Origin: Porphyridium purpureum
Taxonomy: Eukaryota
Direction: 5' to 3'
NCBI GenBank assembly: GCA_008690995.1
Contig: VRMN01000022.1
Span: 1-64,000 of the forward strand
DNA: 64,000 nucleotides
The stretch's first letter is position 1; each line of letters opens with the position of its first letter. Below the pieces are notes generated by a model. It was not told the DNA's origin, ran no database searches, and worked only from the letters and a program-made list of their open reading frames with translations. This document shows, piece after piece, positions 1 through 34,548 of this stretch. The position numbers were made by a program, and so were the translations under genes.

Positions 1-1215
1 GTGCTCGCTTGGCGGCTTGGGACTGACCGCAGTGGCAGACATTGCGCCGTTTGCGTTTGCCGCCGGCAGTCGTGCTGCCGCGCGCGTGGTGGACAACCCG
101 CCCGCACGCGTGTACCCTCCGTCGCTCGCGCAGTGGTGGCGAAGGTTTGACGGAGACGCACACGCCGTGGCGCAGTGGCGCCTGGAGCCAGACGAAGATG
201 TGGAAGCCCTGCTGGACTCGCAGGCACGTGGGAGCCGTCGCTTTTATCGACAATGGTGCTCAGATTGGTCCCACGCGCCGGCCCCGTCCGACCCAGACTT
301 TCACCGACGTCGCAGCGTCAGCTCGCCGCACGCGCTGGCGTGGCTCGGGATGCCGTCTGCCACGCAGCTGGCCGGCACGCACGGAAGCGCGCCGCTGGTC
401 ACCAGATGCATGGCGCGTGGCTGTGCGGCGCATGCTGCCGACCTGTCTGCGAGCCACGCAGCGCGGCGTTCCGGTAATCCCCGGCGCTATCGGGCAGTTC
501 GGATGCCGTCTGCGGGGCCGAGCTGGACCAACACGGTCACCCACGCGCTCAGGTGCCATCTCGGGCCGTCGCGGGTGCGGTGAAAGCGCACTGGTGGTCG
601 ACGCCGTGGCAGCATTTGCGCGCGCCACTTGGCGCCGGTGGAGCGCGAGGTGCACTATTCCCGGCGCGGCGGACTACGCCGGCCGGGGCGACCTGCGCGT
701 GGACAGCACGTGGGTCGATGTGGCAGTGGTGGTGCCGACCGCTTTACCGGCACCAGACTGGCAGCGGTCTGACGGAGCGGCACTCGCAGCGGCGGCGCGT
801 CGCCGAAGCAGGCCTCCTTCGGGCTGCTGCGCGCTTACGACGCACTGGCGTGTCGTTCCAGGCAGTCATTCTGGACACGTACGGCCGGCGCGAACAGTGT
901 GGAGCCGCGTTTCTGGAGACTCTGGTGGCGGCGTACATGCGGCACCGTGGAGTAAGCCAGATGCTGGCAAGCACGGCGCTCCACCGGTCGCTGTCGCTCG
1001 CGGTATACCGCTCGGTGGCGGCGGCGGTGCTTCTACGGCACCCGGGCCCGACTCTGTCAGTTGCCTCGCAGCACTGGCTGGAGACGGGCAGGCGCCTCTT
1101 TGTAGGCGAGGTACTCTCGGAATCGGAAGCAGAGTCGCACTGACTTTGCTGATACATAGGTAAAGTACTTAGGCCCTCTAGATTTATAATGTAAAACGAT
1201 TTCAGAGTAACCCTA
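1..1215 (+). mobile_element. 3' portion of CRE-clade non-LTR retrotransposon (family A), cut by the window start
   Basis: Near-identical to 6944-8148. Encodes the C-terminal RLE region (RGDLRVDSTWVDVAVV) across several frameshifts, stop at 1141-1143, an AT-rich 3' UTR, and ends in AGAGTAACCCTA (1204-1215). Confidence 0.9.
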
Positions 1216-1593
1216 ACCACATTACGGCAACGTGGATGCGCCAGCAAGTGTGCTTCTTTCAGGCTCGCGCGCGTGCACGCGTGCGCCAGATCCCGCCAGC
1301 AGGCGCTGACCGTCCTTTCGCGGGCTGTGTCCCTCGCTGTGTACCGCGCCGCCGCACATGGCATTCTTTTGCGGTACCCGGCGGGACACTCGGCCCTCAC
1401 TTCGAGCGGGCTGCGCTGGCTCCCCCATGTGACGAAAGCGCTCGGCTCCTCCGAACCGAGCACCCCAAGTCACGAGGCCGGCGTCCTCCATTTTGGCCCC
1501 GTGAGCTGATCCCAATTCAGCTCCAACCACGCTGAGTCCCCAACCCTCTGAATAAGTTAAATTTTGACAATAAACACAATTCAGAGTAACCCT
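1216..1593 (+). mobile_element. 5'-truncated copy of a second, diverged CRE-like family (family B)
   Basis: ORF 1273-1509 (LSRAVSLAVYRAAAHGILLRYP) is homologous to the family A C-terminus (LHRSLSLAVYRSVAAAVLLRHP). Its different 3' UTR ends in the same TTCAGAGTAACCCT motif. Confidence 0.75.
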
Positions 1594-1599
1594 AGAGTA

Positions 1600-3148
1600 C
1601 ACTCCTGGCCAAGATGGTTGTCCCAGGTGCAATTTCAAGGTCTGAACTCCAGTTTTATAGTAAAAACGAGCGTTTTCATATAAAATCAATGTTTATACCT
1701 TTTTTAACATATTTTTGTTCCTCAGGTCAGAGGTAAGCGCGCGCTTTTGCGGGACCCCGTGAGGCCATGGAGGGGTTCAAGACATGTGCAAGAAGACCAG
1801 CGCATCTACTGCACTCGGGCATACGATCGCGACCAAGTCCAGCAACCGCAAGCATCGGAAATATGGCACCACGGCTCTCCGACTTTGAGAAAGGCCAGAT
1901 TGACGCTCTGCACCGGCTCTGTCTGACGCCGCGGGCCATTGCAGCACGCCTTCGTCCGCGACCAGACAAGACCCGACCATCGTACAAGACTGTGGAGCGA
2001 TTTCTGAAGAATCGAGGCAAGAAAAGGGTTTTCAAGAAGCCCGGACCGGCGCGGACAATATCGCCGAAATTGGAGCGTCGCCTGATTCGGCACGTCATTA
2101 CGGATAGATTGACGTCTGCACAGGCAGTGACGGAGCTGCAGCTTGCGTGCAGTGCGAGAACTGTTCGTCGTATCCTGCAGAGATCACCAGAGGTTCGTAT
2201 TATCGCACAGAGGCGAAAGTTCTTCATTTCGGAAAAGAACCGAGTCAAGCGGCTTGCATTTGCTCGAGAATACGTCCACAAGCCGCTATCGTTTTGGAAG
2301 AATGTCATCTTCTCGGATGAAAAGATCTTTCGGCTGGACGGGCCGCACGGGTACAACAAGACTTATCAGCGCACGCGAGGCCCTGAGCCCGCGCCAACCA
2401 TGCGTCGCCACAGTGGCGGAGGATCCGCGATGTTTTGGGGTGCCATGTCGTGGCACGGACTGAGTACGTTGCATCGTGTTCAAGGCTCGCTGAATGCCGA
2501 GCGATATCGGCAGGTTATGCTGAACGTCATGATGCCCTGGGCACTGGAACTGCCCTGGCGCCTTGATCAGCCGGATTGTCCATTCATATTTCAGCAAGAT
2601 AATGCGCCCGGACATGCAGCGCTGAGCACGCGCGAGCTGTTTGACACGGTCGGAATCGCACTACTTGATTGGCCAGCGCGGTCGCCGGACTTGAATCCAG
2701 TTGAGAATCTGTGGGCGATCGTTTCTCGCCGTGTGCATTGGCAGGGACGCCAGTTTATGCGCCTCGATGACATGCTTCCAGTTATCTATGACTGCTGGCG
2801 AACGGAAGCGCCAAAGTATGTTGAGGCACTTTTCGAGAGCATGCCCCGTCGCCTGCAAGCTTGCATCGACGCCGGTGGCCGTCAAACCAAGTACTAGTTT
2901 CGTTACTACAGTTAAATCTCTTCTCATAAGCGTGTTTGTCCTCATCAACCTGTTTTATTGTTTTTCTCTTTTTCGGCACTTCTCACACCTGTTGTTTTGT
3001 TCTACGATACCTTTGGACGCCCCTACCCATTTTCCGTGCCGCTGATTCTTTTCGTGCCATCAAAACAGACGACAACCTAGTCGAAAAGCCAAGTTATTCA
3101 CAAAAAACTTCATTTAATCCTGTGGGACAACTAACTTGGCCAGGACTG
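1600..3148 (+). mobile_element. Tc1/mariner DNA transposon, full length
   Basis: Imperfect 25-bp TIRs: CACTCCTGGCCAAGATGGTTGTCCC (1600-1624) and GGGACAACTAACTTGGCCAGGACTG (3124-3148). TA target duplication at 1598-1599 and 3149-3150. Contains a transposase ORF. Confidence 0.95.
1863..2897 (+). CDS. Tc1-family DD34E transposase
   Basis: N-terminal HTH-like region, then VIFSDE, FQQDNAPGH and WPARSPDLNPVENLW, with 34 residues between the second D and E. ATG at 1863 chosen by analogy (MAPRLSDFEKGQI); the ORF opens at 1767. Confidence 0.95.
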   Translation: MAPRLSDFEKGQIDALHRLCLTPRAIAARLRPRPDKTRPSYKTVERFLKNRGKKRVFKKPGPARTISPKLERRLIRHVITDRLTSAQAVTELQLACSARTVRRILQRSPEVRIIAQRRKFFISEKNRVKRLAFAREYVHKPLSFWKNVIFSDEKIFRLDGPHGYNKTYQRTRGPEPAPTMRRHSGGGSAMFWGAMSWHGLSTLHRVQGSLNAERYRQVMLNVMMPWALELPWRLDQPDCPFIFQQDNAPGHAALSTRELFDTVGIALLDWPARSPDLNPVENLWAIVSRRVHWQGRQFMRLDDMLPVIYDCWRTEAPKYVEALFESMPRRLQACIDAGGRQTKY

Positions 3149-3149
3149 T

Positions 3150-3201
3150 AACCCTCTGAATAAGTTAAATTTTAACAATAAACTCGATTCAGAGTAACCC
3201 T
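3150..3201 (+). repeat. Short copy of the family B 3' terminus
   Basis: AACCCTCTGAATAAGTTAAATTTTAACAATAAACTCGATTCAGAGTAACCCT repeats 1542-1593 with about 3 substitutions. Confidence 0.85.
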
Positions 3202-3213
3202 AGAAGTAACCCT

Positions 3214-6200
3214 ACGCATGCAGAGCCGGGGCCGGACGGACACACGGGCTCAGCGCTGCAGTCCATTCGTTCCCGGGTTGAGCAACGGCTCGCCGGAGAC
3301 CGTGACGACGGTGACGCCGCGACCGGTGACGAGGCCATGCCGTCAGCTGGGTCAGACTCTCAAGGCGAACCGGACGGAGGACAGCTCGTCGACGCTGCAG
3401 GCGGCTCTGCTCAGCCAGATGCCGCCCTTTCACGCAGCGCCGAGTCTGTGGTCGGCGATGCAGAGGCTTCAGATGCCCCCGGACGCAAGAATGATGCTGC
3501 TCCGGGGATGGCCCACGCTAAGCGACCCGCCGCTGCCGCGTTATCGCGCACGGTGTCTCCGTCCCGGGCTACTCTGCCCAAGCGTTCCCGGGCGGCTGCA
3601 GAAGTGCCTAGCGTGACGGCGGAAGCAGCGCAGCAAGAGTCTGCAGCAGACAGAGGCGTCGCGCAGGCGCAGCAGAACAGTGCGGGTCTGAGCACTGCCG
3701 CCTGTCTGTTGAATGACGCTGTGCAGCATGCACCAGTCGCCGGAACTTCTGACGCCGGCGACTCGAGCCGTTCCAGCTCGGACGAGGCGCTGCGCTGCCG
3801 TTTCCGGCCTGCTTGTTCCGAGCGGCGCGAGGCAAGTATGGTGCGCCACGCAACCAAGTGCCACCGTGGCGCGCATCACGCGGTCTCGACAGACGCGCTT
3901 GCCGAGGCAGGACTCGCTGCAGACCCGTGTGGAGCATGGCATGCGCTCAGCGGCTCTGCGCACTCTCGGGACCAGCACCGCGCACGCTGCATGCAGTGCA
4001 AGACGGCCCACGCCCACCGTTCCGCAGTGGGCCGTGCCAGCGGCCAAGAGTTTGCCGCTCCCGCACTTCCGGAGGTCCACGCTGTGACTCCGGCTCCCTC
4101 GGCGGCTTCGCCCTTCGGGGCTCATGAGTGAGACACTTTCTGACTCGTGGGAAGGGCCCGGTCCGCGCGGCGCAAGTCTTCTAGCCTCAAGTGAGGAAAG
4201 CGACGCGGAATGGGCTCCCGCACGCCCCCGCGCTCGTCGAGCGTCTGGGCGAGGCCGGCTACAAAGTCGGCCGGGTGGACCAGTGGAACTGCGTGAGCGT
4301 GCTGGTCCTGCGCGAGAGAGTGCGGTGGTGGATGCGCACATCTCCAGCTCTAGGGTGCTGGCAGCCACGCACGCGCCAGTGGCATCTCCGCACAGTGTCG
4401 CAGACTCGGCAGACGGTCGCGCCACACGTCGGTCCGCACGACGACCGCGCCAGCGTGCGGGGCCTGCCGCACACATAGCGGTCAGGGATGCCGTGCTTGG
4501 CCACAGCGCATCTGTTCGCAGCTCTGCTCGCATGCTCCGTCCGGCGGGCTTTGACATTTCGCGACGCAGCGTGGCTCGGATGGCGCAGCTCGAAGCGCCG
4601 CACGCATGTCCGGCCGCCGAGTGCATGCGACGCTACCAGAGTGCGGCTCAGCTGGGCAAGCACTGGCGTGCGGCACATCCGACGGAGCCAGCGAGTGCCG
4701 AGCTTCTGTCCAGCCTGCACTTGAGGCGAAACGCGTGCGGATGGGCGGTGCGCGACGTGCAGCCCCAAGACGCGTGCCAGTGTCCAGCGTGCCGAGCGCT
4801 GTGGAACGCGTGCCCCGTGGCAGGCTGTGAGGCCTCGTGGGCCGAGCCAGCTGGGCTGCTGCGGCACTTGGCGGGCAGTAATCACTCGGCTGAAACACTT
4901 GCCGCAGTGCCACCGGACGCGCTCAGAGCGGTTGGGCTGGCACGCCGGGCGTGCGGCGCGATGTGCTTGCTGCCTGCGCTGTCCGTGCGCCACCAGCGCA
5001 GTCGATGCCGGATCCTGCGCGTTGTGCTGTGGCATTCGAAGGGCACGGCGGTCGCGTGCAGTCTGCAGCGAGCGGGCGCAAGCGGAGCATGACACTCGCA
5101 GTGGCTCCGACACGGCCGCAGACACGCATGTGTCGACGGCGCGTCACGCCGCTGCGCATCCGCCGTCGCCGCTGCTCGACGCCCCCATACTCACCATTCT
5201 TCAAACGGTAGATTGGGTGCTGGGGCTGCGCGTGCGCACGTGGAAGCGCGTACCGGCAAAGTTTGCGCCGGACGTTGCGCTCGAGTTCAGCAGCATGCTC
5301 ACGGAGCTGGCCGAAGCCGCGTCCGAGGCCGCACAAGTCCGCGCGCTCGGAAAGCTGTGGGTGTTTCCGACTTTGGTGCTGTGCCTGCCCATGGAGCGCC
5401 AGAGCACGCGCGCGCGGGCAAGATACCTGGCGACGCGGCTCAAGATGTGGCGCTCCGATGCGCTCGAGCCACTGCTCGACTCGGTGCCTGTGGTGGACGG
5501 TCAACACCTCAGACCCATACCACCAGAGGCCGTGGAGCACCGCATCGTGCAGCATGTGCGCGCCAACCACATTGGCGCCGCGGCGCGACTGGTCGAGTCG
5601 GCGGGTGTGCACGACGTCACGGACTCGGTGCTGGCGCGCTTGCGCGAGCTGCATCCAGAGGCAGGGGCTCGCAGCGGCAGCCACGACGCAGCGCTCGTCG
5701 CACCAGTCGAGTCGGTCAGTATCGACCAGCTGCAGTGCATGCGCGTGCCGTGGGACGCGCAGGCGGTGCGCAAGTCCATTCTGGCCATTCCGCACACCAG
5801 CGGGTGCGGACCGTCGCGGTGGTCCATAGGCGTGCTGCAGCAGGTCATCCGCACGCCCGTGGCGGGTGACACGGCGCTCGGGGCCGTGGCTCTCGCGTTC
5901 AAGCGCATCGCCAGTGTTGGTCTGCATCCGCAAGCTGGCGCGCTGTGGAGCCACGCACGCCTCATCCCGCTCAAGAAGAAGGACGGCGGCGTCCGACCGA
6001 TTGCAGTGGGCGAGCTGCTGCGGCGCGTGCTGGGCAAGCTGGTGCTGGCACACCTGGGCAGCGACGCAGCCGAGTCGCTCCGGCCCGACCAGTACGGCGT
6101 GGGACGCCCGGCCGGGCTCGAAGGCGCGGTGCTGGGGACGCGCCTTGCCGCGATGCAGAGTCCAGCACACAGCCATTGCTGCTCGTCGACATTGCGAACG

Positions 6201-8148
6201 CGTTCAACTGCGTCGACCGGCCCCACGCTGATGCGCATCGTGCAGGGCCGTTTCCCCGCGCTGTGGCCGCTGGTGCGCTCAACGTACGCGCATCCGGCTC
6301 CGCTGCGAGTGGGCGCCCATGTGCTGGCCAGCGCGTGCGGCGTGCAGCAAGGCGACCCGCTGGGGCCCTTGCTGTTCTCGCTGGTGCTGCACAAGGTGCT
6401 GGCAGACACCGAGTCGCCGGGTCTGTCGTCGTTCTGGTACTTGGACGACGGCAGCATTGTGGGGCCGCTCGCGCAGCTGGAAGGCTTCCTGGACGCCTTT
6501 TCGAGCGACGCGGCCGCGTACGGCATGCGCGTGAACCGCACCAAGACGCAGCTGGTGCTTCCGCCAGGAACGCAACCGGCAGTCGTGCCCGCGGGGCTCG
6601 CCGACCTGCCGCGTCTGGCGTGGGACCAAGCACAGCTGCTCGGTGTGCCGCTCGACTTTACCGGCAGTGGCGAGTCGCTCGTGCCGATCACCAACGCGAG
6701 CGCGCAGGTGCTCCAGCTGGCGGAGCAGGTGGCCAAGCTCAGCCACCCCGAAGAGGCGTTCTACCTCCTGCGGGGCAGCGTCGGGCCAAAGCGCCTGATG
6801 CACCTGGCGCGCACCATGCCTCCGCCCGTCGTGACTCGCATCTTTGCCGAGTTTGACCGCGCGTGGCGCAGCATTGTCGCGCGCGCGCTGGGTGTGATGG
6901 CACACGAGGTCGGCGAGCCGTGCAACGCCGAGTGGCGGCTGCCGTGCTCGCTTGGCGGCTTGGGACTGACCGCGGTGGCAGACATTGCGCCGTTTGCGTT
7001 TGCCGCCGGCAGTCGTGCTGCCGCGCGCGTGGTGGACAACCCGCCCGCACGCGTGTACCCTCCGTCGCTCGCGCAGTGGTGGCGAACGTTTGACGGAGAC
7101 GCACACGCCGTGGCGCAGTGGCGCTTGGAGCCAGACGAAGATGTGGAAGCCCTGCTGGACTCGCAGGCACGTGGGAGCCGTCGCTTTTATCGACAATTGT
7201 GCTCAGATTGGTCCCACGCGCCGGCCCCGTCCGACCAGACTTTCACCGACGTCGCAGCGTCAGCTCGCCGCACCGCGCTGGCGTGGCAGCTCGGGATGCC
7301 GTCTGCCGCAGCTGGCCACGGCACGCACGGAAGATGCGCCGCTGAGTCAGATGCATGGCGGCGCGTGGCTGTGCGGCACATGCTGGGCCTGTCTGCAACC
7401 CGCAGCGCAGCGTTCCGGTATCCCGGCGCTATCAGCGCAGTTCGGATGCCGTCTGCGGGGCCGAGCTGGACCAGCACGGTCACCACGCGCTCAAAGTGCC
7501 ATCTCGGGCCGTCGCGGTACGGTCAGCACGCACTGGTGGTCGACGCCGTGGCAGCATTTGCGCGCGCCGCTGGCTTGCCAGTGGAGCGCGGGTGCCTGCT
7601 TCCGGCGCGGCAGACTTGCGCCAACCGGGCGACCTGCGCGTGGACAGCACGTGGGTCGATGTGGCGGTGGTGGTGCCGACCGCACCGGCACCAGGCGGTC
7701 CGACGGAGCGGCACTCGCGGCAGCGGCGCGTCGCAAGCAGGCCTCCTTCCAGGCTGCTGCGCGCACTGGCGACGCTGCTGGCGTGTCGTTCCAGGCGGTC
7801 ATTCTGGACACGTACGGCCGGCGCGAACAGTGTGGAGCCGCGTTTCTGGAGACTCTGGTGGCGGCGTACATGCGGCACCGTGGAGTAAGCCAGATGCTGG
7901 CAAGCACGGCGCTCCACCGGTCGCTGTCGCTCGCGGTATACCGCTCGGTGGCGGCGGCGGTGCTTCTACGGCACCCGGGCCCGACTCTGCCAGTTGCCTC
8001 GCAGCACTGGCTGGAGACGGGCAGGCGCCTCTTTGTAGGCGAGGTACTCTCGGAATCGGAAGCAGAGTCGCACTGACTTTGCTGATACATAGGTAAAGTA
8101 CTTAGGCCCTCTAGATTTATAATGTAAAACGATTTCAGAGTAACCCTA
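3214..8148 (+). mobile_element. Probably full-length CRE-clade non-LTR retrotransposon (family A)
   Basis: Starts just after AGAGTAACCCTAGAAGTAACCCT and ends in AGAGTAACCCTA. Domain order: zinc fingers, RT, CCHC, RLE. Confidence 0.88.
3337..8076 (+). pseudogene. CRE-type polyprotein (C2H2 zinc fingers, RT, CCHC, RLE endonuclease), frameshifted in this assembly
   Basis: C2H2-like fingers (CPAAEC..LGKHWRAAH; CPVAGC..LLRHLAGSNH). RT motifs ARLIPLKKKDGGVRPIAVGE, LLVDIANAFN (other frame), GVQQGDPLGPLLFSL, WYLDDG. CCHC knuckle C..CGAELDQHGHHALKC and RPGDL..WVDV, split over ORFs 3337-4131, 4124-5092, 4827-8096, 5945-6856, 7355-7888 and 6985-8076. Confidence 0.88.
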
Positions 8149-8719
8149 GAGGCTGGCCACGTTGCGAAGCGCGAGGCGGAGTAGCGCGCAGGGCAATGAC
8201 CATGTAGGCTGCTTTTGCTCGGGCCGTGCCATTCTCATGCGCGGTAGTTCAGAGGGCGATGCCGAGCGCGTCAAAATATACCAATGTCGGCGAGCACCAC
8301 GTGCCTGCGCTTGCGCGCCGTGGAGACCTTACCGCTGTTCGCAACGCTGCTTGCTTCTCTACATCTCGTCTGAAACGGCCTCGCAACAGAGCTTCCCGGC
8401 CTTATGCACAGAACAAGGTTTTGGCAAACTTTCCATTTCGCACGCGCACACACCCTCCGATACATGTAATCTGCATGTGTAGCCCTCGCTACAATCACAG
8501 CATTGACCAAAAGCGAATTCCGTCAACGTCCTGCGTCTGGTACGTACATCTTTTTCGGCCATGCACGCCTCTCGAACTGGTAACTGCGCAGGTGTATTCA
8601 ACTCAGCAACGATCATGTCAAGCATGTCGCTCTGTCCGGCCTTGTCCGCATTCGCCTCCTCCGCGCTCGCCTTGATATTACGCATCGAAGAATTCGTGCA
8701 GCCCTGGGTAAGCTGTCAA

Positions 8720-9039
8720 TGTCATGAATTTCCAGTCATAATCTCGTCTACCCGACAGGATCAGCTTGAATGGTTCATTCTCGCCTATATAGCATAGGCG
8801 TCGTATTTGTCTTCGGAGGTCAAAGTGTCGGACGAGGCAAGGAGATAGATAAGACTTTTATTGCGTGGAGATAAACACCTTTTGCAAAGTACAAGGTGAG
8901 CGCCTGAGGGTAATAACATACCGCTCCGTGCTCGTGCTTGCGCACGCCCGTGGCTAGACAGCTGGCGGACGTGTTACCGATTTGTCTCAGTGCAATCTGA
9001 AGAACTCCTTCCGGGACGCAACCCGTGATTTTTGCGACA
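8720..9039 (+). repeat. Copia 5' LTR
   Basis: TG...CA ends; direct repeat of 14048-14367 with about 5 substitutions seen by eye; TATA-like CTATATAG near 8785. Confidence 0.95.
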
Positions 9040-9101
9040 ATCGCGATCTCGCTAGTGATCTTTTTTGCTTGTGATAGTTTGCGAGCACTTCGCCTCTGTT
9101 T

Positions 9102-12100
9102 GTGGGAGGCTTCTACAAGTGTAGGTGCGTTGCTGTGGTTTGGAGAACTGCTGAGTCTGTCGGAGATCCCTCGTGTTCCTTGTGTGTGTTCGGTTTTTAC
9201 GCTGTTATGATGACTCGCAGCAAGAGAAAGCAAGCCCGTACGGCTACACCAAGTACACCTCACGTAGGTTCTGTTCCTGACTCGGCGTTTGCGACCCCGG
9301 CAGTAGCTGGCACGCCGGGGACGGCGGCTGATCCTTCGGTAGCGGAATCACCCAGCGCGGTTCCGCTCGAGAGGATTTCGTCCGACGTCGAATCACCGTC
9401 AGTTGCGACGCTTCGCGTCAGAGCTGACGAAGCTCCCCCAGCCGTTGAGTCCAGCCCAAGTACTTCTTTACCACGCAACGCAGGAAACCCGCCTCGTTTT
9501 GTCGGCGCAACGCCAGGGAGTCCGACGCGATATCGAGACGATTGGCTGTCGCCTGGCACTGCACCAGCAACATACAGGCATGACCCATCGCGTTCTATCG
9601 CGCCTGCTCCCAGCTGGTGGCCTGCCACCATTCAGCTCAGTACGCAAGTGATCCAGGCCCTCGAGCTGGCAGAGGCCGGGCCGACCGACAACATTGAGCG
9701 CATGATGGTTGACGGTATTGTCACGTGCGATTGGCTCATGGAGGCTGATGGACCGGCCGCTGTGTACGCTTGGCAGGACATGTGCAGGAGGCGTCGGCTG
9801 CCGTTCTTTGAAGACGGTACCAACGTGCGGTCGTCTTTTGAAGCTTACGCACGCCACGCAAACTATGCAGTTGGTAGTGCCCAGTGTTTTCAGGGTATGC
9901 CCGTAAGTGGACCAACGGCGTCTGCGCCACTACCTCAACCATCGCAAGTTTCATCGTCAACACCGTCTCCGAGTCTCCCTGTTTCATCACAGAATTCCAA
10001 TCCTCACACGAACAACAACACCATACACCTGCCCTCTTCTCTACCAAACTTCATTAAGTACCTGTCCGAGGACAGGTTCACGGGGGAAGAGGGGGGTATA
10101 GCGTTTGCGAGGTGGAAAAGGAGAGTGATTTTGGCGCAGAGAACATTTGCGCTCAGTGACGAGCTCGTGGCACGCGCACTACCATTGATTGTGGGTGGTC
10201 GAGCAGAATCTATCTTGTTCCGAAGCGCAGAGACGCATCCACGGCTTGCGCAGATGTTGTCGTTGTTGGGAAGCACATTTGCTTCCGAAGCGGCGCTCCA
10301 AGCGCATCGAATTGGCTTGAAACAGTTGGATTTCCACCGTTTCGTCAAGGACTCTGGATCTCTGGTGGCAGCCTTCGACGCCTTAAATCGCACGGCAGAG
10401 GAGCACTGTGCTGCCTTGGGCGACGGCAGGGATGATCCCAATTCGGTGTCTGAGTTTGTGATGGATGCAATGTTTCATTCCCGCTTTGCTCCATCACTAG
10501 TGAGCTTTCAGGACAGAAAGGGCCACAGCGTCGTTCAGAGCGTTCGTGCATTCTTGGCCAACTTGGACCGGACTGATGGACTTCTTATCCCTAGCTTTTC
10601 TGCTCGCAACACGTACTTCAGCGGTGATCAACGTGATGAAAATGACGAGAGCACATACTACACAAGGCGCCTAGTCCGCAATGATCCAAATAGACATGTG
10701 CCGAGAGGTGCAAGTAATCCGGGAGGCAGCGCGGTTCCGAAGCAAAAGGTCGTATGTGATTTTTGTGGGAAAAATGGGCACATGCGAGCTACCTGCTGGA
10801 AATTGCATCCAGAGATGGTCGCCATCGTTGGAGATGTCGAAGCAGGATCGCAGGATGATCGAGACTCCAACAGTGGAGTCGACACAGTTGTTGGTTTGTG
10901 CCTAGATGTTTACTCCATATCGGCAGTATTACCAGCCGTGCTCGATTGGAGTGTGTTCGTTGACTCTGGTGCTGGCCGCTCGGTTGCAGGCTTGAATGCA
11001 TACAAGCGGTATTGCGCAGCCCTCGGGCGCCCCGCAAAGCTCAAGCCGGCGCATGGCGAGGCGGCAGTCCGATGGGGGAGGCTGCTAGAACCTCTAGGCA
11101 TTGGTGTTGTGCGCTTACCTGTTGGGGAAGACCATTTCGTGGAGTTTCGGCCAGTCGTGGTTGATTCAGATGACTTACCGATCTTGTTTGGAGGCAAAGA
11201 CCAAGACAAATTTGGTTTCAACTTGATACGAACGAGCGAACCTCCCTGTCTTTCCTCCCGCGCGTTCAAAGTTCCTCTCTTCCGTCTCCCATCCGGTCAC
11301 CTTGTCATACACTTCGATTCGCCGAATGGAAAACCGCGTACTCTGGATACTATTCTCTACACAGTCGACGAGCTCATGGTGCTGCACAAGAAGTTCGGCC
11401 ACGCGTCAGGTCGTCAAATCCGCAAACTGCTCGATTTATCAAAGGAAGCGGTGGAACCTCGAGTAATGCAAGAGTTCTTGGCAAAGGTCAAGGAATGCGC
11501 TGTATGTCAATGGTACACGGGCCGCCGGTCAACGTACAAGGTCGCGGCAGAGATCAACGCGGATTTTAACCATGTTGTTTTCATGGACTTCGTTTTCCTC
11601 CATGTAAACGGAACAAGGCATAAGGTTCTCCACGCCGTTTGCGGAGGAACGAAATGGAACGCTGCGGGTGTGGTAAAGGACGGATCGGCATCCGGAGTGT
11701 TTAATGTATTCTTCCGAATTTGGATCCAGTTTTTTGGGGCGCCGCATCGGCTGCGCGTGGATAGAGAGAAGGTTTTAGAGGCGCGTGATTTCAAGCTGCT
11801 TTTGGAAAATGAGGGGTGCGTGCTGGATCCGGTTGTAATCGAAGGGCACTGGCAGGTCGGTGTGGTCGAGCGCCATCACGAGTCATTGCGCAAGCTTTGC
11901 ACCCGTGTCTCGCTTGATTCCCCATCTCTGAAGATCGCAGACATTCTCGCCGTATGTTGCCGCGCAATTAACAACACCGTAGGGCCTGAAAACATAATTC
12001 CATCTTTACTCGTATTTGGAACCGTACCCCGTTTGTCTTTGCACGCACGGGTGGCGCAGCATGACTCAGGAGAAACACAAGTTGAACGCATATCCGCTAT

Positions 12101-13931
12101 GCAACTCGCGCGGGAAGAGTGGGCAGCAATCGCATCCCACATCAAACTAAAGGCGGCGCAAAATTCACGCGTGCCCGAATTTCCAAACGAGGAAAATGAA
12201 CTGAGGCCTGGTATTGCAGTGCTAGTGCGACGTGAGCGGTCGAGCGAATGGACCGGAGGCTGGACTGGACCATACGTTGTTGTGTGGGTGGATAAAGAGC
12301 GCGCAGCCGTGGGGGTCGTGCAACCAAGCAGTGTGTCATCCGACCGCGCACGAACCTTGACGTTTTCGATCCACAACATTAAGGTATACCACCCACCAAA
12401 TGCGCTTGCGCCTCTGTCGACCATCTTTGCAATCACAGAAGAACAGGAGTCAAGTGCGTGGGAAGAAGCAGACATGAACGAGATACTCGGTGTTTTGCAG
12501 CGTCAGACGTTGCAGCCTGTTTCCTTTGAGTCAATCCCGCGCGGAGCGAATATCCTAGGAGCGCGGATGGAGAGAGTAACCAAAGCAAACGGCACCAGCA
12601 AATCACGTCTTGTTGTGCAGGGTTTCCGGGACCCAGGCGCCAAAAGCGTGAATGTTGACGCTCCTGTTTTGACGAAGTTTTCATTCCGTTTCCTTGTATC
12701 TGTTGCAGTCCTTCGTGGTTCAAGTCTGTTCTACAGAGATTATTCTCAAGCGTATCTGCAAAGCGAAGAACCTCTCGCACGAGAAGTATACCTTCGACTT
12801 AAGCCAGACGTGCAGCGAATCTTTGCAAAAATAACGAGTTCAAGTTTCCCTGCTTATGCCAAGTTAATCAAGCCGCTGTACGGGCTGACTGAGTCGGGGG
12901 CGTACTGGCACTCAACCATTCGTCATGCGTATGAGGAGCAAGGTTTCTGTGCTGGTGCCTTGGATCCTTGCGTCATGTACCTCACTTCACGCAACAAGAC
13001 GCACGGCGCAGTCGGCATTTTAGTCGACGACACAATATGCGTCGGTGATGAATACTGCCTCGCTGCGGAGCGCAACGTGGCGTCAAGATACGAGAACAAA
13101 GGGGTGATGTCCCCGCCCTTTGTCTTTAATGGATTCGAAGTAGAGAGTGTGGGTTCAGGGGCCTCTTTGAGTCATGCGAAATACGTGAAAGCTCGTCTCG
13201 GGTCGGTGAGTGTCAATGGCTTTGAGGATTTCCGAAAGTTACGGGGGCAGCTCGCTTATCTAGCGAACGGGACCAGACCCGACTTGTTGTGTGCCGTTGC
13301 ACTGGCTTCGCAAGTAACCGAGGAATCGTACACGGAACTGCATGGAAAGCGGCTCGTAAGGCTATGTTCTCGCATTGTCAAGAATCCGGCAAGGCTCATT
13401 TTTGGGCAGCTCGGATATCAAGACTTGTGTCTTCGGGTTTACGCTGACGCATCTTACGCCTCAAATTCGGATTGTACGTCACAAATTGGATTCGTCGTGT
13501 TCTTGGGTGACAAGAGCGACAACGTGCATCTTCTGCATGCGCAATCGAATAAGTCACGACAAGTCGCACACTCTGTGCTCGGAGCCGAGCTCCTGGCTCT
13601 CTGCATCGCCTTCGATTTTGCTGAAGCCGTGCAAACAGAGTACATGAACTGTGGGGTTGACGTACCAATCGTGTTGGCCACAGACAGCAGGCAGGTATTC
13701 GACGCCATCACTCGAAGCTCGACGTTGGCAGAAAAGCGGCAACTAGTTCGCATGTTGGTTCTTCGGCAAGGACTTCAGGACATGCGCATCTCACGCGTCC
13801 TGCATGTCCCTGGCAGACTCAATGTCGCAGACGCTTTGACAAAAGAACGCGAATGCACCTTATGGGAGCACGTGTTGCAGGAAGGAACGCTCCCATGGGA
13901 CTTCTCTGCATCAGTGTATCTGGTCGAATAG
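9102..13931 (+). CDS. Copia gag-pol polyprotein (gag, zinc knuckle, PR, IN, RT, RNase H)
   Basis: CDFCGKNGHMRATC knuckle, protease VDSGA, LHKKFGHAS..CAVC integrase HHCC, integrase core, RT KSRLVVQGF / KPLYGL / ILVDD, RNase H YADAS..NVADALTK. Integrase precedes RT. The true start may be the ATG near 9207-9210. Confidence 0.95.
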   Translation: MGGFYKCRCVAVVWRTAESVGDPSCSLCVFGFYAVMMTRSKRKQARTATPSTPHVGSVPDSAFATPAVAGTPGTAADPSVAESPSAVPLERISSDVESPSVATLRVRADEAPPAVESSPSTSLPRNAGNPPRFVGATPGSPTRYRDDWLSPGTAPATYRHDPSRSIAPAPSWWPATIQLSTQVIQALELAEAGPTDNIERMMVDGIVTCDWLMEADGPAAVYAWQDMCRRRRLPFFEDGTNVRSSFEAYARHANYAVGSAQCFQGMPVSGPTASAPLPQPSQVSSSTPSPSLPVSSQNSNPHTNNNTIHLPSSLPNFIKYLSEDRFTGEEGGIAFARWKRRVILAQRTFALSDELVARALPLIVGGRAESILFRSAETHPRLAQMLSLLGSTFASEAALQAHRIGLKQLDFHRFVKDSGSLVAAFDALNRTAEEHCAALGDGRDDPNSVSEFVMDAMFHSRFAPSLVSFQDRKGHSVVQSVRAFLANLDRTDGLLIPSFSARNTYFSGDQRDENDESTYYTRRLVRNDPNRHVPRGASNPGGSAVPKQKVVCDFCGKNGHMRATCWKLHPEMVAIVGDVEAGSQDDRDSNSGVDTVVGLCLDVYSISAVLPAVLDWSVFVDSGAGRSVAGLNAYKRYCAALGRPAKLKPAHGEAAVRWGRLLEPLGIGVVRLPVGEDHFVEFRPVVVDSDDLPILFGGKDQDKFGFNLIRTSEPPCLSSRAFKVPLFRLPSGHLVIHFDSPNGKPRTLDTILYTVDELMVLHKKFGHASGRQIRKLLDLSKEAVEPRVMQEFLAKVKECAVCQWYTGRRSTYKVAAEINADFNHVVFMDFVFLHVNGTRHKVLHAVCGGTKWNAAGVVKDGSASGVFNVFFRIWIQFFGAPHRLRVDREKVLEARDFKLLLENEGCVLDPVVIEGHWQVGVVERHHESLRKLCTRVSLDSPSLKIADILAVCCRAINNTVGPENIIPSLLVFGTVPRLSLHARVAQHDSGETQVERISAMQLAREEWAAIASHIKLKAAQNSRVPEFPNEENELRPGIAVLVRRERSSEWTGGWTGPYVVVWVDKERAAVGVVQPSSVSSDRARTLTFSIHNIKVYHPPNALAPLSTIFAITEEQESSAWEEADMNEILGVLQRQTLQPVSFESIPRGANILGARMERVTKANGTSKSRLVVQGFRDPGAKSVNVDAPVLTKFSFRFLVSVAVLRGSSLFYRDYSQAYLQSEEPLAREVYLRLKPDVQRIFAKITSSSFPAYAKLIKPLYGLTESGAYWHSTIRHAYEEQGFCAGALDPCVMYLTSRNKTHGAVGILVDDTICVGDEYCLAAERNVASRYENKGVMSPPFVFNGFEVESVGSGASLSHAKYVKARLGSVSVNGFEDFRKLRGQLAYLANGTRPDLLCAVALASQVTEESYTELHGKRLVRLCSRIVKNPARLIFGQLGYQDLCLRVYADASYASNSDCTSQIGFVVFLGDKSDNVHLLHAQSNKSRQVAHSVLGAELLALCIAFDFAEAVQTEYMNCGVDVPIVLATDSRQVFDAITRSSTLAEKRQLVRMLVLRQGLQDMRISRVLHVPGRLNVADALTKERECTLWEHVLQEGTLPWDFSASVYLVE

Positions 13932-14047
13932 TCGCATGTGAGTTGTTTTTTTTTGTCTACCTCCTGTGAACATGCTCCTTCAACATGCTTCGTGCACGCG
14001 TTGGTGGGGAGGCGCAAGAAAAAACAGAAAAGGAAAGACAGAGTGAA

Positions 14048-14367
14048 TGTCATGATTTTCCAGTCATAATCTTGTCTACCCGACAGGATCAGTTTGAATG
14101 GTTCATTCTCGCCTATATAGCATAGGCGTCGTATTTGTCTTCGGAGGTCAAAGTGTCGGACGAGGCAAGGAGATAGATAAGACTTTTATTGCGTGGAGAT
14201 AAACACCTTTTGCAAAGTACAAGGTGAGCGCCTGAGGGTAATAACATACCGCTCCGTGCTCGTGCTTGCGCACGCCCGTGGCTAGACAGCTGGCGGACGT
14301 GTTACCGATTTGTCTCAGCGCACTCTGAAGAACTCCTTCCGGGACGCAACCCGTGATTTTTGCGACA
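14048..14367 (+). repeat. Copia 3' LTR
   Basis: Direct repeat of 8720-9039, followed by TSD GTCAA. Confidence 0.95.
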
Positions 14368-14854
14368 GTCAAAAGGCCAAAATATGATCGGATCCAGTGG
14401 ATCTCTTGTGCTCGACTCATAAGACGCGCACCTGTGCGGCGAGAGACGATTTTACTGCTTGTCCTACATATTCGTGCGACAACGTCCTGGTGCTCTGTAG
14501 TCAAAGCGTTCAGAGCCGCTGTCAACACACTCACCGCGACCACATCGATGCTTTCCTGTAGAACAAGGTCATCGCAGCGCATGTGCGAACAGGCTAATGT
14601 GCTTCGTCTCGCACAACAAGCTTGGCCTTCCAGACTCGTCGAGGTCTCGCTTCAGTGCAAGTGCGTCACAATCAAAGGACGCCAGTAGATGAGGAACACA
14701 AGCAGGACTCTGTCCTGCAAACACGCATGTGCGTGACAGCAGATGGGCCACATCCGCTAATCGGATGTCGAAACAAAACGGCAGACTTCGGTCTGGACAT
14801 CCCTTCGATCTTCACATTTGCGATAAACACGCGAAAGTGGTCGCGTCTTTACAT

Positions 14855-17245
14855 TCATTTCGCCTTCAACAAACACTGATAGCCTAGTTCTTTCAACCTA
14901 TTTTGCGCGTCTGTGTTTCCCTGCTCCGCGGCCTTGCTGTACCACTTGACCGCCGCGCAGCTGTCCTGCGGCAGCCCACCCTTCCCGTCCTCGTAACAAG
15001 CGCCCAACTTGTACTGCGAGTCTGTGTGTCCCCGTTCCGCGGCCTTGGTGTACCACTCGACCGCCACCTACCTGTCTACAGGCAGCTCATCCCGCCCCTC
15101 CTCGTAAAAATAGCCCATTTTGTACTGCGCGTCTGCGTGTCCCTGTTCCACGGCTTTGCGGAACCACGCGACCGCTGCGCTACTGTCCTGGCGCAGGCCG
15201 CCCAATCCCTTGATACAAAAGCAGCCCAGCCGACACTGCGCGCAGGCGTCTCCCTTTTCCACCGCCTTGCGGTACCACACCAGCGCTTCCGCAAAATCCT
15301 CGTTGTCCTCGGCAGTCCGACCACGTTTCTGCCAGTCTGCAGCGTCGCAGCGCGCTTCCTCGGCGGCGGCGGCCTCTTCTTCGCGCCGCCGCGCCTTAGA
15401 AAGTTCTACTTCGGGTTGTGCGGGAAGATCTCGCGCTTCTTGCTCGACATCAGCACGCTCATCCGCGGCTGGTTGAATTATGGCGTTTGCTGACTCACCA
15501 GATAGAACCGTGACCTGTGAAATATTTCCTGCCAACGCATCGACCGCTGCTGTACTGGGGCCGGATGGGAACGCGGTATACTGGGCGGTCTGTGACTTTG
15601 GAGCCGCAGTGGCGCTCTCCGCACCCATGCGGTCATAAAACTCCCACCAGATATCCGATACTGTCGGGCGCTCCTCGGGCGTCGTCCGCAGACACGCCCT
15701 TGCTATATTCACAACCCAGGCCGGCCACTGTTTTGCGTACTCCGACCTGTTTAGTCTGTCCCACAGCACACCCGCTTTCGGATCTTCGAAAATCCTTAAA
15801 ATCTCGATTTCCGAGATTCAGGTCCCATACACCTTCTCGCCGAGCAACATTTCAAACAACATGACGCCGTACGACCAGACGTCACTGGCGCGGCTGTACT
15901 GGATACCACCGAGCACTTCTGGAGCCAAGTGACCACAAGTGCCAACAGACGCGTCCGTGCGCGAAAAGAACTTTCCACACCAGACAGTCCGAAATCGCCA
16001 ATCTTGGGTGTCAAGTCCTCCAGGAGAAGAACATTCTGTGGTTTCATATTGCAATGGATGATATTATTTCCATGCAAATACTTCAACCCGTCTACAATGG
16101 ATCGAAAAATCGTGAGCAGCTGTTCAGGCGATCGTAATTCCTTTCCGCTGTCGAGAAACATGTGCATTTCCAACGAGCCCTTCGCAGCGTACTCGAGCAC
16201 AAAAAGGGCATTCAGCGTTATGCATATCCATCTGCGTCCGCGGGTAAAACCCGCCACGCGTCTGCACAATGTTTTCATGTGAAAGCCTCCATATGATCCC
16301 CGGCTCGTTTCTTAGCTCAGCCAGCGCTTTGATCCCTGCCAACTTTATCTCCTTGATTGCTACTTCAAGTCCCATGAACATGCCCTTGAAAACGTTCCCG
16401 AAGCCAACGGCGCCGAGAGGAGATAGTATGATCCTCTCGCCATTCACATTCGTAAGCTTCTCAGCAATTGCCGCCTCAACATACCAAGGTTCACTCTGAT
16501 CAAGCACCTTTGAATCAAGCCCCGAATCCGCCGCTTTCAAGTATGACTCGGTGACTTTCACTTCCAGGCCGTGCATACTGAGCACAGCACTTCTCTCCGG
16601 ACAGGATCCAAGCTCGTTCTCCAATGTTTTTGTGTTGCTTAGCCCGTCGTCTTCGAGAGCGCGAACCATCTCGTCAGGGCCGGTTTCCAACCTGCGCAGA
16701 ACGGCTTCCAATTCACCAATCACAACTTGGTGATCCCGGTTCTCTTGTCCACGATTTTGCGCTTGCTCGGACGTCAAATGGAATACGAAACTACGCGCCA
16801 ATCGCAACTCGAGCTCGACAAGGCGTGCGTCGCACGTCAGGAACTCACCCTGAAAGTTTTTTGCCTTCAATACGCGTATCGCGTGTTCGATCCCCTTCTC
16901 TGAACCGGAGAATCGCTTCAAAAGGGCGCACGCGGACTGCACTTTAGACTCTAGCTCGCTCATGCATTCGACCAAGCTCGTGTCTTTCATATCACACGCG
17001 CCGGTCGTGCAGTTTTCGTCATTCGTGTCAAAACACGAACGGAGGGTGTTCGAGATGCTCGAGACCCGCTCCGCTAGCCTTGTGCACGAATTGCCATATG
17101 CCTTCGCGGTCAGCGCACACTCTACCAGAACGTTGGTCAACGCGAAAATGGTCTGTGCAAACGGAATCAGTTCCCCGACGTCACCGGCCACGGCGCCACC
17201 TAATTTGAGGCCGTTCGCCGCCTCGGTTCCAATGACAGTTGCCAT
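14855..17245 (-). pseudogene. Disrupted gene: MLKL-like N-terminal helical domain, TKL-type kinase, SEL1 repeats
   Basis: N-terminus IPFAQTIFAL..AKAYGNSCTRLAERV. Kinase GAVGFGNVFKG, VAIKEI, LEYAAKGSL, IHCNMKPQN, IGDFG, APE, DVWSYG. Three to four SEL1 repeats (WYRKAVEKGDACAQCRLG; WFRKAVEQGHADAQYKMG; WYTKAAERGHTDSQYKLG). Frameshifts near 16200, 15980 and 15800, and an in-frame TAG at 15068-15070. Confidence 0.85.
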
Positions 17246-28941: not shown

Positions 28942-29405
28942 GAATTAAGAGACTGTGTGATGAATTCGAAGAACGTTCCTTTCGAGACGCCGGCCGCCTT
29001 CCAGCAAATTATGAAGTAAGAGTTTCACGAAAGGACGAAAGTTAAATGCTGTGGGGATTTTTGCATGCGCGCCCGAGGGGTCGCTACGTGTTGGTGAGCG
29101 GTCGCGGCACGGGCGCCAGGTACCGACCACTTGCAGCAAGCGCGAACATTAAAGGTGGTATCAGTGGAGTATTCTGGTGTAAAGTAGAAGCGGAAGAGCG
29201 GGATGGAAGTAAAACAAAAGGGATAAAATTGACAGGATAAAAGAGTTTGGTGCTGAAGCTCATCGCTCTCAAACTTCTGTCGTGATCAGAGTTTAGGACG
29301 GGACAAACGAGCCATCGCGATCGCTCTTTCGCCCAGCAGCTACCAATAATTACAACAGGCTGTCAGATTCCGCAACAATCCTAGTCTATTTCGGTACGGC
29401 CCGGA

Positions 29406-29694
29406 TGTTACCAATGCTGTGCCTTTTTCTCTCTCTCTTCTTCTTCTTTTTCCGAGCAAGACCTGACCGGCTAGTCCGGGCAGGCGCGTCGCCTTTTTAT
29501 ACCCTTACTTCCGCTAGGGACAGCAAGGCGCCAAGAGAAATGACAATGCAAATCATTGGCATTTCTGCGCGCGTCTAGAAGGTTCTGGAACCTCTAGAAG
29601 CTTCTAGAAACGGTTCAACGGTCTACCGGTTTAACGGCTTACCGGTTTTGGATTAACCGAACCGTTCTAGGTGACTGGGGTCGAACGGATAACA
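29406..29694 (-). repeat. Gypsy 3' LTR
   Basis: TGTTA...TAACA, direct repeat of 34563-34851, PPT adjacent at 29695-29708. Confidence 0.95.
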
Positions 29695-29813
29695 TCTCCC
29701 CCCCTCTTGACTCGACGTCTCGGCGAGACTCCAAACTAAGTTGCATTCTTGGCTCGAGGAACCCGCGCTCCGGGAGAAAACCTCTGCCTAGCAAACTTCT
29801 CACAGTACCCAAG

Positions 29814-32800: not shown

Positions 32801-33211
32801 CTTGACATTGGAAACTTCTCCGGCTGTTTCCAATACAGACCCATCCGCTAGGGTCACATGATCTCTCTTCCACGACGCCTTCTGCTTCAGGCCGTCGGAT
32901 TTCTGCACAAAGTCCACGCTCATGAAGTTGTCCGTCGCGCCACTGTCAATCAAAAACGTGGCCTCTCCGTCGGACTTGTGCACTTTTCCTCGAACTCGAA
33001 GAAGCATGGCAGCTCCCATCCCTCCAAGTTCCTTGATCACGGGCTGATTTGCGCTCGAGTTTCGCCCACAAGGTGTCGGACAGCCAGACCTTGGCTTACC
33101 AAGGCCACCACAGCGGTCTTCATTACCGCCCCTAGAGGTCTCGTAACGTGTGCGAGCCTCCTTTCCCTCTGACTGTCCGAGGAACCTCTCTACTCGAGCT
33201 CCTCGTTTTTT
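29814..33211 (-). CDS. Gypsy pol (PR, RT, RNase H, integrase), one apparent 1-nt frameshift near 31462
   Basis: FLIDSGAT protease; RMCVDYRALN, MPFGLCNAPATFQ, VYLDDIL RT; LAQEGRPVAFTSRKL..NVVADALSR RNase H; HDIPTAGH..CHAC, ISMDFV, HPQTDGQTER, PKFLGP integrase. ORFs 31289-33304 and 29814-31373. Confidence 0.93.
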
Positions 33212-34011
33212 GACTCCAGCGAGTCTCCCTCCAGCTGCTGGATAGTCTTCCTTGCCTCGGGACACTTCCTCGCGATGTGTCCCGGCCTTCCACAATTCCA
33301 GCATTTGAGCTCGCTTCGAACACGCCTCTGACCCTGCACATGTCCCAGCTCCATCGGGACGGGTCCTTCCTGCGCTGCACGACCGAAAAATGGCGTCCTC
33401 ACACTTGAATCACGCACGCCGCGGGTCGCATGAATGGCGTCGTCCACGACCACCGCCACCTGCGCAGCCTCCGCAAACGTGCTCACTCCTCGCTTGTACA
33501 CTTCTAAGCGGACCTCGGGCTTCAGACCCCTCACAAAGCGGTCCATCATTTCTGCGTCCGACAAGTCCGGAATCACAAGTGCCGCGTCCTGAAAAGCCGC
33601 CACATACGCATGGGCCGGGCCTTTCTGCGAAAGACGCGTCAACTTGTCCCTTGCACGCCTGATCGAATCCTGCGGCGTGAACCGAGCACTCACGAGGGCA
33701 GCAAAATCATTCCACGTCGTGGGGATCTCCTGCGGGTAGCGCTCGCAATTCAGAACCCACCAATGAAGCGCCTCTCCCTCGAAATAGTCTGATGCCAGGT
33801 CTACTGCACGCCTCTCCGCAAGCAGACGTTTCTCCAAATCGTCCGGGTGGATGCTCTCCAACAGCCGGCCCAAGATCTTCTTTCTCGCCTGGAACAACCA
33901 CGTCTTCACAACCAGAAGGTCACGCTTCCCGTCGAACCTCATCTGACGGGCCTCCTTCGGGCCACGTGGTCCCAGCGTCTCCGAATCAATCTCCATGCTT
34001 TCTGGACACAA
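33190..34011 (-). CDS. Gypsy gag
   Basis: Retrotransposon gag motifs (GEALHWW, LSQKG..AYV..F, RFVRGLKPEVR), PVPMELG and knuckle CWNCGRPGHIARKC. Likely ATG at 33997. Confidence 0.93.
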   Translation of the reverse strand: MCPESMEIDSETLGPRGPKEARQMRFDGKRDLLVVKTWLFQARKKILGRLLESIHPDDLEKRLLAERRAVDLASDYFEGEALHWWVLNCERYPQEIPTTWNDFAALVSARFTPQDSIRRARDKLTRLSQKGPAHAYVAAFQDAALVIPDLSDAEMMDRFVRGLKPEVRLEVYKRGVSTFAEAAQVAVVVDDAIHATRGVRDSSVRTPFFGRAAQEGPVPMELGHVQGQRRVRSELKCWNCGRPGHIARKCPEARKTIQQLEGDSLESKNEELE

Positions 34012-34548
34012 GCACGCTCAACGATCACGACAACTCGAACAGCAAGCCTCCGATGCTCACTTTCTCCAACAGCTGCGCGCACCACGAACGGGCTCGGTCG
34101 CCCTCACGAACACAAACCGACACACGAAGCTGTCCTCTCACGCACACACACGCACAGCAATCTTCTCACGCACACACAACAAAGCACACAGCAATCCTCC
34201 TCTGTTGCGCTGGATGGGGAGCGGCCCGGGCCTTTGCACTGGGGCGGGGATTATAGATGCGATCTTGTATGGAGGTGTTCGGCGCCTACCTTCGCAAAGG
34301 TGGTCGTGCGACACTAGGATGAATCCTAGTGAAGGCTGACCGTTACGGCTCTTGCCTACTAATACGTGCTAAGGCAGAGAGCGAGTCCGCCGTCAAGGCC
34401 TAGGCCTATCGTACAGCCAAGACTGAGACCCGCTCCACCCGTCGCACCCTCCGGATCGACTTACTCGAACCCCCTTACCCGCAGACTCTCCCACCCAGGC
34501 AACCCCAGAGAAACTCTAAGAGAACCTTAGAGCAACCCCAGGTAACCA

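What the first reader, a model, noticed from the sequence alone, without database searches (positions are those of the whole stretch)
1..8151. Head-to-tail CRE retrotransposon array joined at telomere-like repeats: candidate telomere-targeting retroelement system in a red alga
Seen: four co-oriented units: family A 3' part (1-1215), truncated family B (1216-1593), a family B 3' stub (3150-3201) and long family A (3214-8148). Each ends in TTCAGAGTAACCCTA with no poly(A), and the next unit starts right after the motif. Known: CRE-clade RLE elements are site-specific, and MoTeR (Magnaporthe) and Cnl1 (Cryptococcus) are telomere-associated members. TAACCCTA is the C-strand of TTAGGG-type repeats. 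Inference: the element RNA 3' end could pair with a G-rich telomeric strand to prime reverse transcription. The 3' ends face the gene-rich side, the polarity of HeT-A/TART arrays if a chromosome end lies to the left. I know of no such description in red algae, but cannot search.
Basis: partly seen in the sequence, partly recalled or inferred. Interest (0 to 1): 0.88.

Follow-up and report, generated by a model that had tools for sequence, protein, structure and literature searches.

The report
Telomere-type jumping-gene array in red alga
In the red alga Porphyridium, related jumping genes are stacked head to tail and each ends in the same short repeat, which is likely this alga's still-unknown chromosome-end (telomere) sequence, though this stack has not been shown to sit at a chromosome end.

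Summary
The array is real. Four same-strand units of restriction-like-endonuclease (RLE) non-LTR retrotransposons end in TTCAGAGTAACCCTA. A Tc1 transposon splits one junction. The host is Porphyridium purpureum, whose telomere is unknown; TTAGGG probes and TRAP failed (PMC3622300). The motif is TTC(A) plus a tandem unit, GAGTAACCCTA, mixed with TAACCC. Four families occur in mixed arrays on many contigs. Five of 80 metagenome relatives carry true (TAACCC)n on the same strand, and one shares 13 bases with family B right up to the repeat. Best reading: a MoTeR/Cnl1-like telomere-targeting system whose target, G-strand TTACTCTAGGG, is likely the host telomere unit. Against: no long repeat tract was seen. 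Three runs show unique DNA, not the array, left of 8149. One cluster is contig-internal, and the tree puts these elements beside, not within, the telomeric group. Replacement of telomerase is untested.

The parts
1..1215 (+). Family A retrotransposon, 3' part (RLE region, 3' UTR, repeat tail); runs off the window's left edge
   Evidence: 93% to 6944-8148; tblastn to P0224
1216..1594 (+). Family B retrotransposon, 5'-truncated 3' fragment with tail
   Evidence: 76% aa to P0013 residues 1064-1154; motif at 1580-1594
1595..1599 (+). Start of a second repeat unit (GAGTA), split at TA by the Tc1 insertion
   Evidence: sequence
1600..3148 (+). Tc1/mariner DNA transposon with TA duplication, terminal inverted repeats and transposase ORF 1737-2897
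   Evidence: inverted arms 1598-1625/3123-3150; Pfam DDE_3 and HTH_Tnp_Tc3_2
3149..3202 (+). Rest of the split repeat unit overlapping (AACCCT) a 3' stub of family B with its tail
   Evidence: 95% to 1542-1596
3203..3214 (+). Extra variant repeat unit GAAGTAACCCTA between elements
   Evidence: GTAACCCT at 3206-3213
3215..8148 (+). Near full-length family A element: one ORF (ATG 3337 to stop 8076) with C2H2 fingers, RT (YLDD), CCHC knuckle and PD..D endonuclease motif; this copy has frameshifts; 5' end between 3215 and 3241
   Evidence: RVT_1; motifs and frames; indels not shared by short-read contigs
8134..8151 (+). Proximal tail plus GAG, the three bases shared between the repeat and the unique flank
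   Evidence: array-free contigs begin matching at 8149

Best explanation
This is a head-to-tail array of two of at least four Porphyridium families of RLE-encoding non-LTR retrotransposons joined by short GAGTAACCCTA/TAACCC tracts, which likely are the host telomere repeat that the elements target, as MoTeR, FoTeR and Cnl1 do in fungi. Shown: the array, the domains, the shared tract and its strand. Inferred: the endonuclease nicks the G-rich strand (TTACTCTAGGG mixed with TTAGGG), the RNA's 3' repeat pairs with the freed end and primes reverse transcription, and the copy lands with its 5' end toward the chromosome tip, often 5'-truncated, leaving 1-3 repeat units between neighbours. Repeated rounds and recombination would build mixed arrays. 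The junction at 8149 likely marks a break or off-target site joined through the 3-base GAG seed in this lineage only.
For: Shared tail across families whose RT regions are only 54-61% identical and whose 3' UTRs differ. All 3 internal 5' ends in the window, and the 3 clear 5'-truncation rows shown in other runs (3521 X5, 7973 X9, 8007 X2), are preceded by the repeat with short overlaps; the X2 row is 30 of 30 letters of mixed 11-mer and hexamer units. 5 of 80 metagenome relatives carry (TAACCC)n on the sense strand, four of them with long tracts at the contig's 5' end. L068 shares TAAACACAATTCA with family B up to the tract (1 occurrence in 372,321 bases; 1 of 200,000 shuffles), and L030 also ends in TTCA. 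The unit matches the Galdieria candidate TTTATTTAGGG at 8 of 11 positions. Fused gene models show A-B, B-A and A-D neighbours on other contigs. Named copies sit on 14 of the 25 smallest contigs and within 5 and 14 genes of two large-contig ends. MoTeR has the same polarity, short stable inter-element tracts, breaks and internal relics (PMC7367193 passages).
Against: No long pure tract of the 11-mer was seen; 7 rows (10 contigs) after the A tail go into unrelated DNA within about one extra unit. X2, X7 and X9 carry unique DNA left of 8149, and X7's depths leave no room for an array-flank contig. One named cluster lies about 700 genes inside the 5.7-Mb contig, and 4 of 21 other transposon genes also lie within 20 genes of contig ends; long arrays break contigs wherever they are. 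In the careful tree the Porphyridium clade lies outside the telomeric-plus-Cnl1-like group (95/91), the branch uniting them has only 86/75, and an alternative placement was not rejected (AU p=0.07). Cnl1 also inserts into genes.
Confidence: 0.62

Rival explanations
1. Self-targeting interstitial element: the repeat is an element-borne 3' tail kept from telomere-targeting ancestors; copies insert into each other's tails and build arrays in transposon islands, while the true telomere is something else.
For: Array-free alleles continue into unique DNA with only GAG shared; interior cluster among Copia/Gypsy genes on the largest contig; no long tract seen; Cnl1 inserts into genes, often without target duplication.
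Against: The tract starts at the position where relatives have real telomere repeats; it is shared by diverged families; hexamer/11-mer mixing suggests an outside template; most mappable clusters are near contig ends.
Confidence: 0.22
2. Retrotransposon-built telomeres: telomerase is absent or weak and the elements extend chromosome ends directly, the RNA tail priming on the terminal 3' end as HeT-A/TART do.
For: TRAP was negative in three red algae and two probes gave no signal in P. purpureum after BAL31 (PMC3622300); tracts are short; tails meet many unrelated sequences through 1-6 base overlaps; four co-oriented families.
Against: The authors allow technical or wrong-primer causes; the endonuclease motifs are intact; relatives sit inside ordinary TTAGGG tracts; presence of TERT was not testable here.
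Confidence: 0.11
3. The order of units and the 8149 junction are an assembly join of collapsed repeat copies.
For: Clustered indels in both A copies; no contig bridging 8148/8149 among those shown for 4 runs.
Against: Tail-to-5'-end joints occur in independent runs (1218 to 3241 in X5, 1596 to 3669 in X1); clean TA duplication inside a repeat unit; the junction falls in phase with the repeat (GAG).
Confidence: 0.05

Closest known systems
MoTeR1/2 (Magnaporthe oryzae) and FoTeR (Fusarium oxysporum)
   Same: RT plus restriction-like endonuclease; C-strand repeats on the sense strand at the 3' end; arrays with truncated copies, short inter-element tracts and other transposons inserted (PMC7367193 passages; PMC12857005 sections 18-19 and passages).
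   Different: Red alga; 11-nt unit mixed with TAACCC instead of TAACCC alone; four co-existing families; chromosome-end position not demonstrated.
Cnl1 (Cryptococcus neoformans)
   Same: Homologous RT (P0071, 28% identity, E 5e-17; its identity as Cnl1 is recalled); 5-80 kb subtelomeric arrays that defeat assembly, plus insertions into genes (bioRxiv 10.1101/2021.08.11.455996 passages).
   Different: Outside the Cnl1-containing group in my tree; several families share one tail.
Unnamed telomere-embedded relatives L030, L031, L036, L068, L077
   Same: Same domain order; (TAACCC)n on the same strand; 3' boundary TTCA in two, 13 shared bases in one.
   Different: 25-27% protein identity; canonical hexamer tracts; hosts unknown.
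HeT-A/TART/TAHRE (Drosophila)
   Same: Head-to-tail multi-family arrays with 3' ends facing inward (recalled).
   Different: Those are jockey-clade, poly(A)-tailed and replace telomerase (recalled); this element has an RLE, no poly(A), and telomerase status is unknown.

Membership tests
RLE-encoding non-LTR retrotransposon (CRE group) | Single ORF with N-terminal C2H2 zinc fingers and central RT | tested here: met
   Two C2H2 motifs and YLDD in families A and C; RVT_1
RLE-encoding non-LTR retrotransposon (CRE group) | C-terminal CCHC knuckle and PD..D endonuclease motif; no APE, RNase H or integrase | tested here: met
   CCHC-RH pattern in A (P0220) and B, PD..D in A, B, C; D1122 invariant and H1065, C1069, H1079, E1100, D1113, K1148 at 90% or more in 11 sequences; Pfam finds only RVT_1 and a finger
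CRE clade | RT groups with CRE1/CRE2, SLACS, CZAR against R2/R4/NeSL/HERO | tested here: inconclusive
   No trypanosomatid or outgroup sequences were in hand. Scores favour the Cnl1-like protein (80 bits) over solved R2 proteins (33 bits), in different searches
MoTeR/FoTeR/Cnl1 telomere-targeting elements | Tandem, co-oriented arrays with 5'-truncated copies separated by short repeat tracts | tested here: met
   fused gene models elsewhere
MoTeR/FoTeR/Cnl1 telomere-targeting elements | Flanking tract is the host telomere repeat, C-strand on the sense strand | tested here: inconclusive
   Strand and boundary match telomeric relatives, but the host telomere is unknown and no long tract was seen
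MoTeR/FoTeR/Cnl1 telomere-targeting elements | Intact copies at chromosome ends, 5' end outward | tested here: inconclusive
   Near contig ends in 2 of 4 large-contig clusters by hard bounds, a third by estimate, one interior; orientation elsewhere not readable; no whole genome
MoTeR/FoTeR/Cnl1 telomere-targeting elements | Common ancestry with the fungal telomeric elements | tested here: inconclusive
   Adjacent, not nested; 86/75; alternative not rejected, AU p=0.07
HeT-A/TART/TAHRE | Jockey-clade element with poly(A) 3' end (recalled) | tested here: not met
   RLE motifs and no poly(A)
HeT-A/TART/TAHRE | Host lacks telomerase; elements alone extend the ends | not testable with these tools
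Endonuclease-less Penelope-like terminal elements | No endonuclease domain | tested here: not met
   Endonuclease motifs present

The most novel reading that the evidence does not exclude
Porphyridium has lost or sidelined telomerase, and four RLE retrotransposon families build and heal its chromosome ends by priming on the terminal 3' end with an 11-nt repeat carried in their RNA tail: a second, independent HeT-A/TART-like system, outside insects and made from a different retroelement clade.
Probability: 0.11. Interest if true: 0.92.

Novelty: new member of a known kind. Interest (0 to 1): 0.63.

Why it matters
The telomere of P. purpureum, and of most mesophilic red algae, is unknown, and earlier probes and TRAP assays failed (PMC3622300; PMC7046594). 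The element tails give a precise candidate, TTACTCTAGGG mixed with TTAGGG, that one Southern, one FISH or one look at long-read ends can test. If right, MoTeR/Cnl1-type telomere targeting extends from fungi to Archaeplastida, with the elements tracking a changed telomere unit, and it would explain why this genome's assembly breaks into many small repeat contigs.

Tried and rejected
No whole genome is held, so copies could not be mapped directly. Rfam found no RNA gene in the window (0 matches), which argues against a spliced-leader, snRNA or rRNA target here. A strict TTAGGG target was rejected: the unit is 11 nt, and human-type probes failed. A poly(A) tail is absent. The lone GTAACCCT at 19783 has no element beside it and is within chance (0.51 expected). 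No close homolog outside Porphyridium: identities fall from 51% or more to 37% or less among 1.84 billion representatives. The metagenome scan (24 of 64 parts read, best 80 of 521 kept) gave no Porphyridium contig, and none of the 80 loci holds GTAACCCTA. The FastTree grouping of Porphyridium with all telomeric relatives (99, 29 rows) did not hold as a starred branch in the careful tree of 35 rows. The ESM Atlas gave only unnamed RVT_1 clusters. TeloBase's one held supplement has no red-algal entry; its online tables could not be seen. One search fetched an unrelated paper. Contig depths suggest many copies (X7 body contigs about 2,200-6,900 against about 310-360 in the flank) but are not copy numbers and are not used as evidence.

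Full report
Observation. The motif TTCAGAGTAACCCTA occurs four times, all on the + strand (1201, 1580, 3188, 8134), against 0.04 expected. The units are a 3' part of family A (1-1215), a 5'-truncated family B piece (1216-1594), a B stub (to 3202) and a near full-length A (3215-8148). Between B and its stub lies a Tc1/mariner element (1600-3148) with a TA duplication, inserted into a further unit of the repeat. An extra unit follows the stub, and GAG follows the last A. So the junction sequence is an element boundary TTC(A) followed by a short tandem tract of GAGTAACCCTA.

Host and element. The linker gene at 62753-63973 matches a chain of the phycobilisome structure 6KGX at 405 of 406 residues, and the closest named homologs of the element and of neighbouring transposons are labelled Porphyridium purpureum. 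Family A has one ORF with C2H2 fingers, RT, a CCHC knuckle and a PD..D endonuclease motif. The window's copies carry clustered indels that short-read contigs lack (for example at 5009, 6167, 6176, 6221, 7493), so they are copy damage or uncorrected read error. Public gene models show four families, A-D, 54-61% identical in the RT, and fused models that run from one family into another (P0014, P0016, P0235 B to A; P0220 A to B; P0010 A to D). Mixed arrays therefore exist elsewhere in this species.

Junctions in other runs. I laid contigs of five coded runs; 43 of 190 loose-end rows were shown. Three rows are clear 5' truncations of A (3521, 7973, 8007) and all three are preceded by the repeat, with 1-4 bases of overlap; at 8007 all 30 letters shown are mixed GAGTAACCCTA and ACCCTA units. 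The other 'before' rows shown were short mismatches at indels, other transposon ends, another family's 3' UTR ending in the same tail (8099, three runs), a probable chance match (5626), or the array-free allele. Two joints link a tail to an A 5' end with unknown letters between. After the A tail, 7 rows (10 contigs) enter unrelated DNA at different phases within about one extra unit; a depth-135 contig in X2 runs on through GAG. No long pure tract was seen, though contigs collapse such tracts. X2 and X7 hold 58 other letters before 8149, and record 32 of X9 implies 132; the 30 letters shown are unique DNA. X7's binned depths (507.6, 584.8, 440.4) are fully explained by that contig (224.5, my arithmetic) plus two alleles (209.9, 150.4), leaving no array-flank contig. 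The junction at 8149 is thus lineage-specific or an assembly join.

Position. The window's own RT model lies on a contig short enough that position 1 is within about 29 kb of its edge. For named copies I ranked protein accession numbers, using 9,898 proteins on 52 contigs from PMC6811547 (passages; 'telomer' occurs 0 times). Sixty points gave no violation of contig order; two accessions were left out, and order within a contig is assumed to follow position. Named element genes are on 14 of the 25 smallest contigs. On contigs over 780 kb, one cluster is within 5 genes of an end, one within 14, one near an end by density only, and one about 700 genes inside the largest contig; two mid-size contigs were not bracketed. 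As control, 4 of 21 other transposon genes lie within 20 genes of an end. This fits terminal arrays but cannot prove them, since long arrays break contigs anywhere.

Relatives. Of 80 metagenome loci, five carry (TAACCC)n on the sense strand: L031, L036, L068 and L077 at the contig's 5' end, and L030, L036, L068 and L077 at the element's 3' end (4 of 53 loci with a readable 3' side). L068 shares TAAACACAATTCA with family B exactly up to the tract, the only occurrence in 372,321 bases; 1 of 200,000 shuffles reached 13 bases and 173 gave two loci ending TTCA (noticed by eye first, so post hoc). Where these relatives have telomere repeats, Porphyridium has GAGTAACCCTA. That is the strongest reason to read the tract as the host telomere unit. 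Its G-strand, TTACTCTAGGG, matches the Galdieria candidate TTTATTTAGGG at 8 of 11 positions. Trees are weaker: the four families form a clade (100/100) next to, but outside, the group holding the five telomeric loci and the Cnl1-like protein (95/91), with 86/75 on the uniting branch (35 of 130 rows); one alternative placement was not rejected (p=0.07).

Mechanism. Shown: array, domains, shared tract, polarity. Inferred from the RLE family and from MoTeR: nicking of the G-rich strand, pairing of the RNA's 3' repeat, target-primed reverse transcription, frequent 5' truncation, short tracts left between copies, and growth by repeated insertion and recombination. MoTeR arrays show 5' ends outward, stable tracts of at most two repeats, breaks that are healed or capture internal DNA, and internal relics (PMC7367193 passages), which would cover both the 8149 junction and the interior cluster. 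Cnl1 forms 5-80 kb subtelomeric arrays yet also inserts into genes (bioRxiv 10.1101/2021.08.11.455996 passages), so this one array could still be interstitial. I give 0.62 to telomere targeting, 0.22 to self-targeting interstitial arrays, 0.11 to telomerase-free end building and 0.05 to artefact.

Literature. PMC3622300 (passages, sections 13 and 18): P. purpureum gave no signal with human-type or Cyanidioschyzon-type probes after BAL31, and TRAP failed in three red algae. PMC7046594 (passages): red-algal telomere data are mostly missing. PMC12857005 (abstract, sections 18-19, passages): FoTeR; 'algae' occurs 0 times. PMC4640811 and PMC7658794: passages only. PMC10767889: one supplement searched, no red-algal hit; its online database was not seen. 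Searches listed no report of a telomere-associated retrotransposon in red algae or of this repeat; Repbase and subscription journals were not searchable. The scan's own notes hold nothing on this DNA and only other-genome CRE cases that I did not use.

Verdict. A real, new member of the MoTeR/Cnl1 kind in a red alga, with a testable candidate for an unknown telomere. Chromosome-end position and telomerase status remain open. Interest 0.63.

Noticed in passing
window 1600-3148: Tc1/mariner inserted at the TA of a repeat unit. The letters before the 3521 truncation in X5 also end in CTG-TA-ACCCT, which may be a second such insertion; an identical transposase is on record on another small contig that also holds a family C copy.
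   Followed up: partly
window 8715-14370: Copia LTR retrotransposon with an open 1,574-aa ORF and 98% identical LTRs; the bases flanking its two ends do not form a matching target duplication.
   Followed up: partly
window 29405-34851: Ty3/Gypsy element on the - strand with 100% identical 290-bp LTRs and a split pol frame.
   Followed up: partly
window 8149-8184: The flank at the junction reads as the open end of a frame up to a TAG, so the array may have cut a coding sequence.
   Followed up: no
window 14894-17245: Frameshifted protein-kinase-like gene on the - strand ending in a 111-bp tandem repeat.
   Followed up: no
window 38706-48155: Three neighbouring long + strand ORFs that look helical-repeat-like by eye; the two scanned (814 and 1,464 aa) have no Pfam match.
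   Followed up: no
L030, L031, L036, L068, L077: Unnamed metagenome RLE retrotransposons embedded in (TAACCC)n, grouping apart from the fungal Cnl1-like branch: a possibly undescribed telomere-targeting lineage.
   Followed up: partly
L067:1-127 and L035: L067 begins with (TTTCAGTT)16, a possible other terminal repeat; L035 has a 2,962-aa open frame.
   Followed up: no
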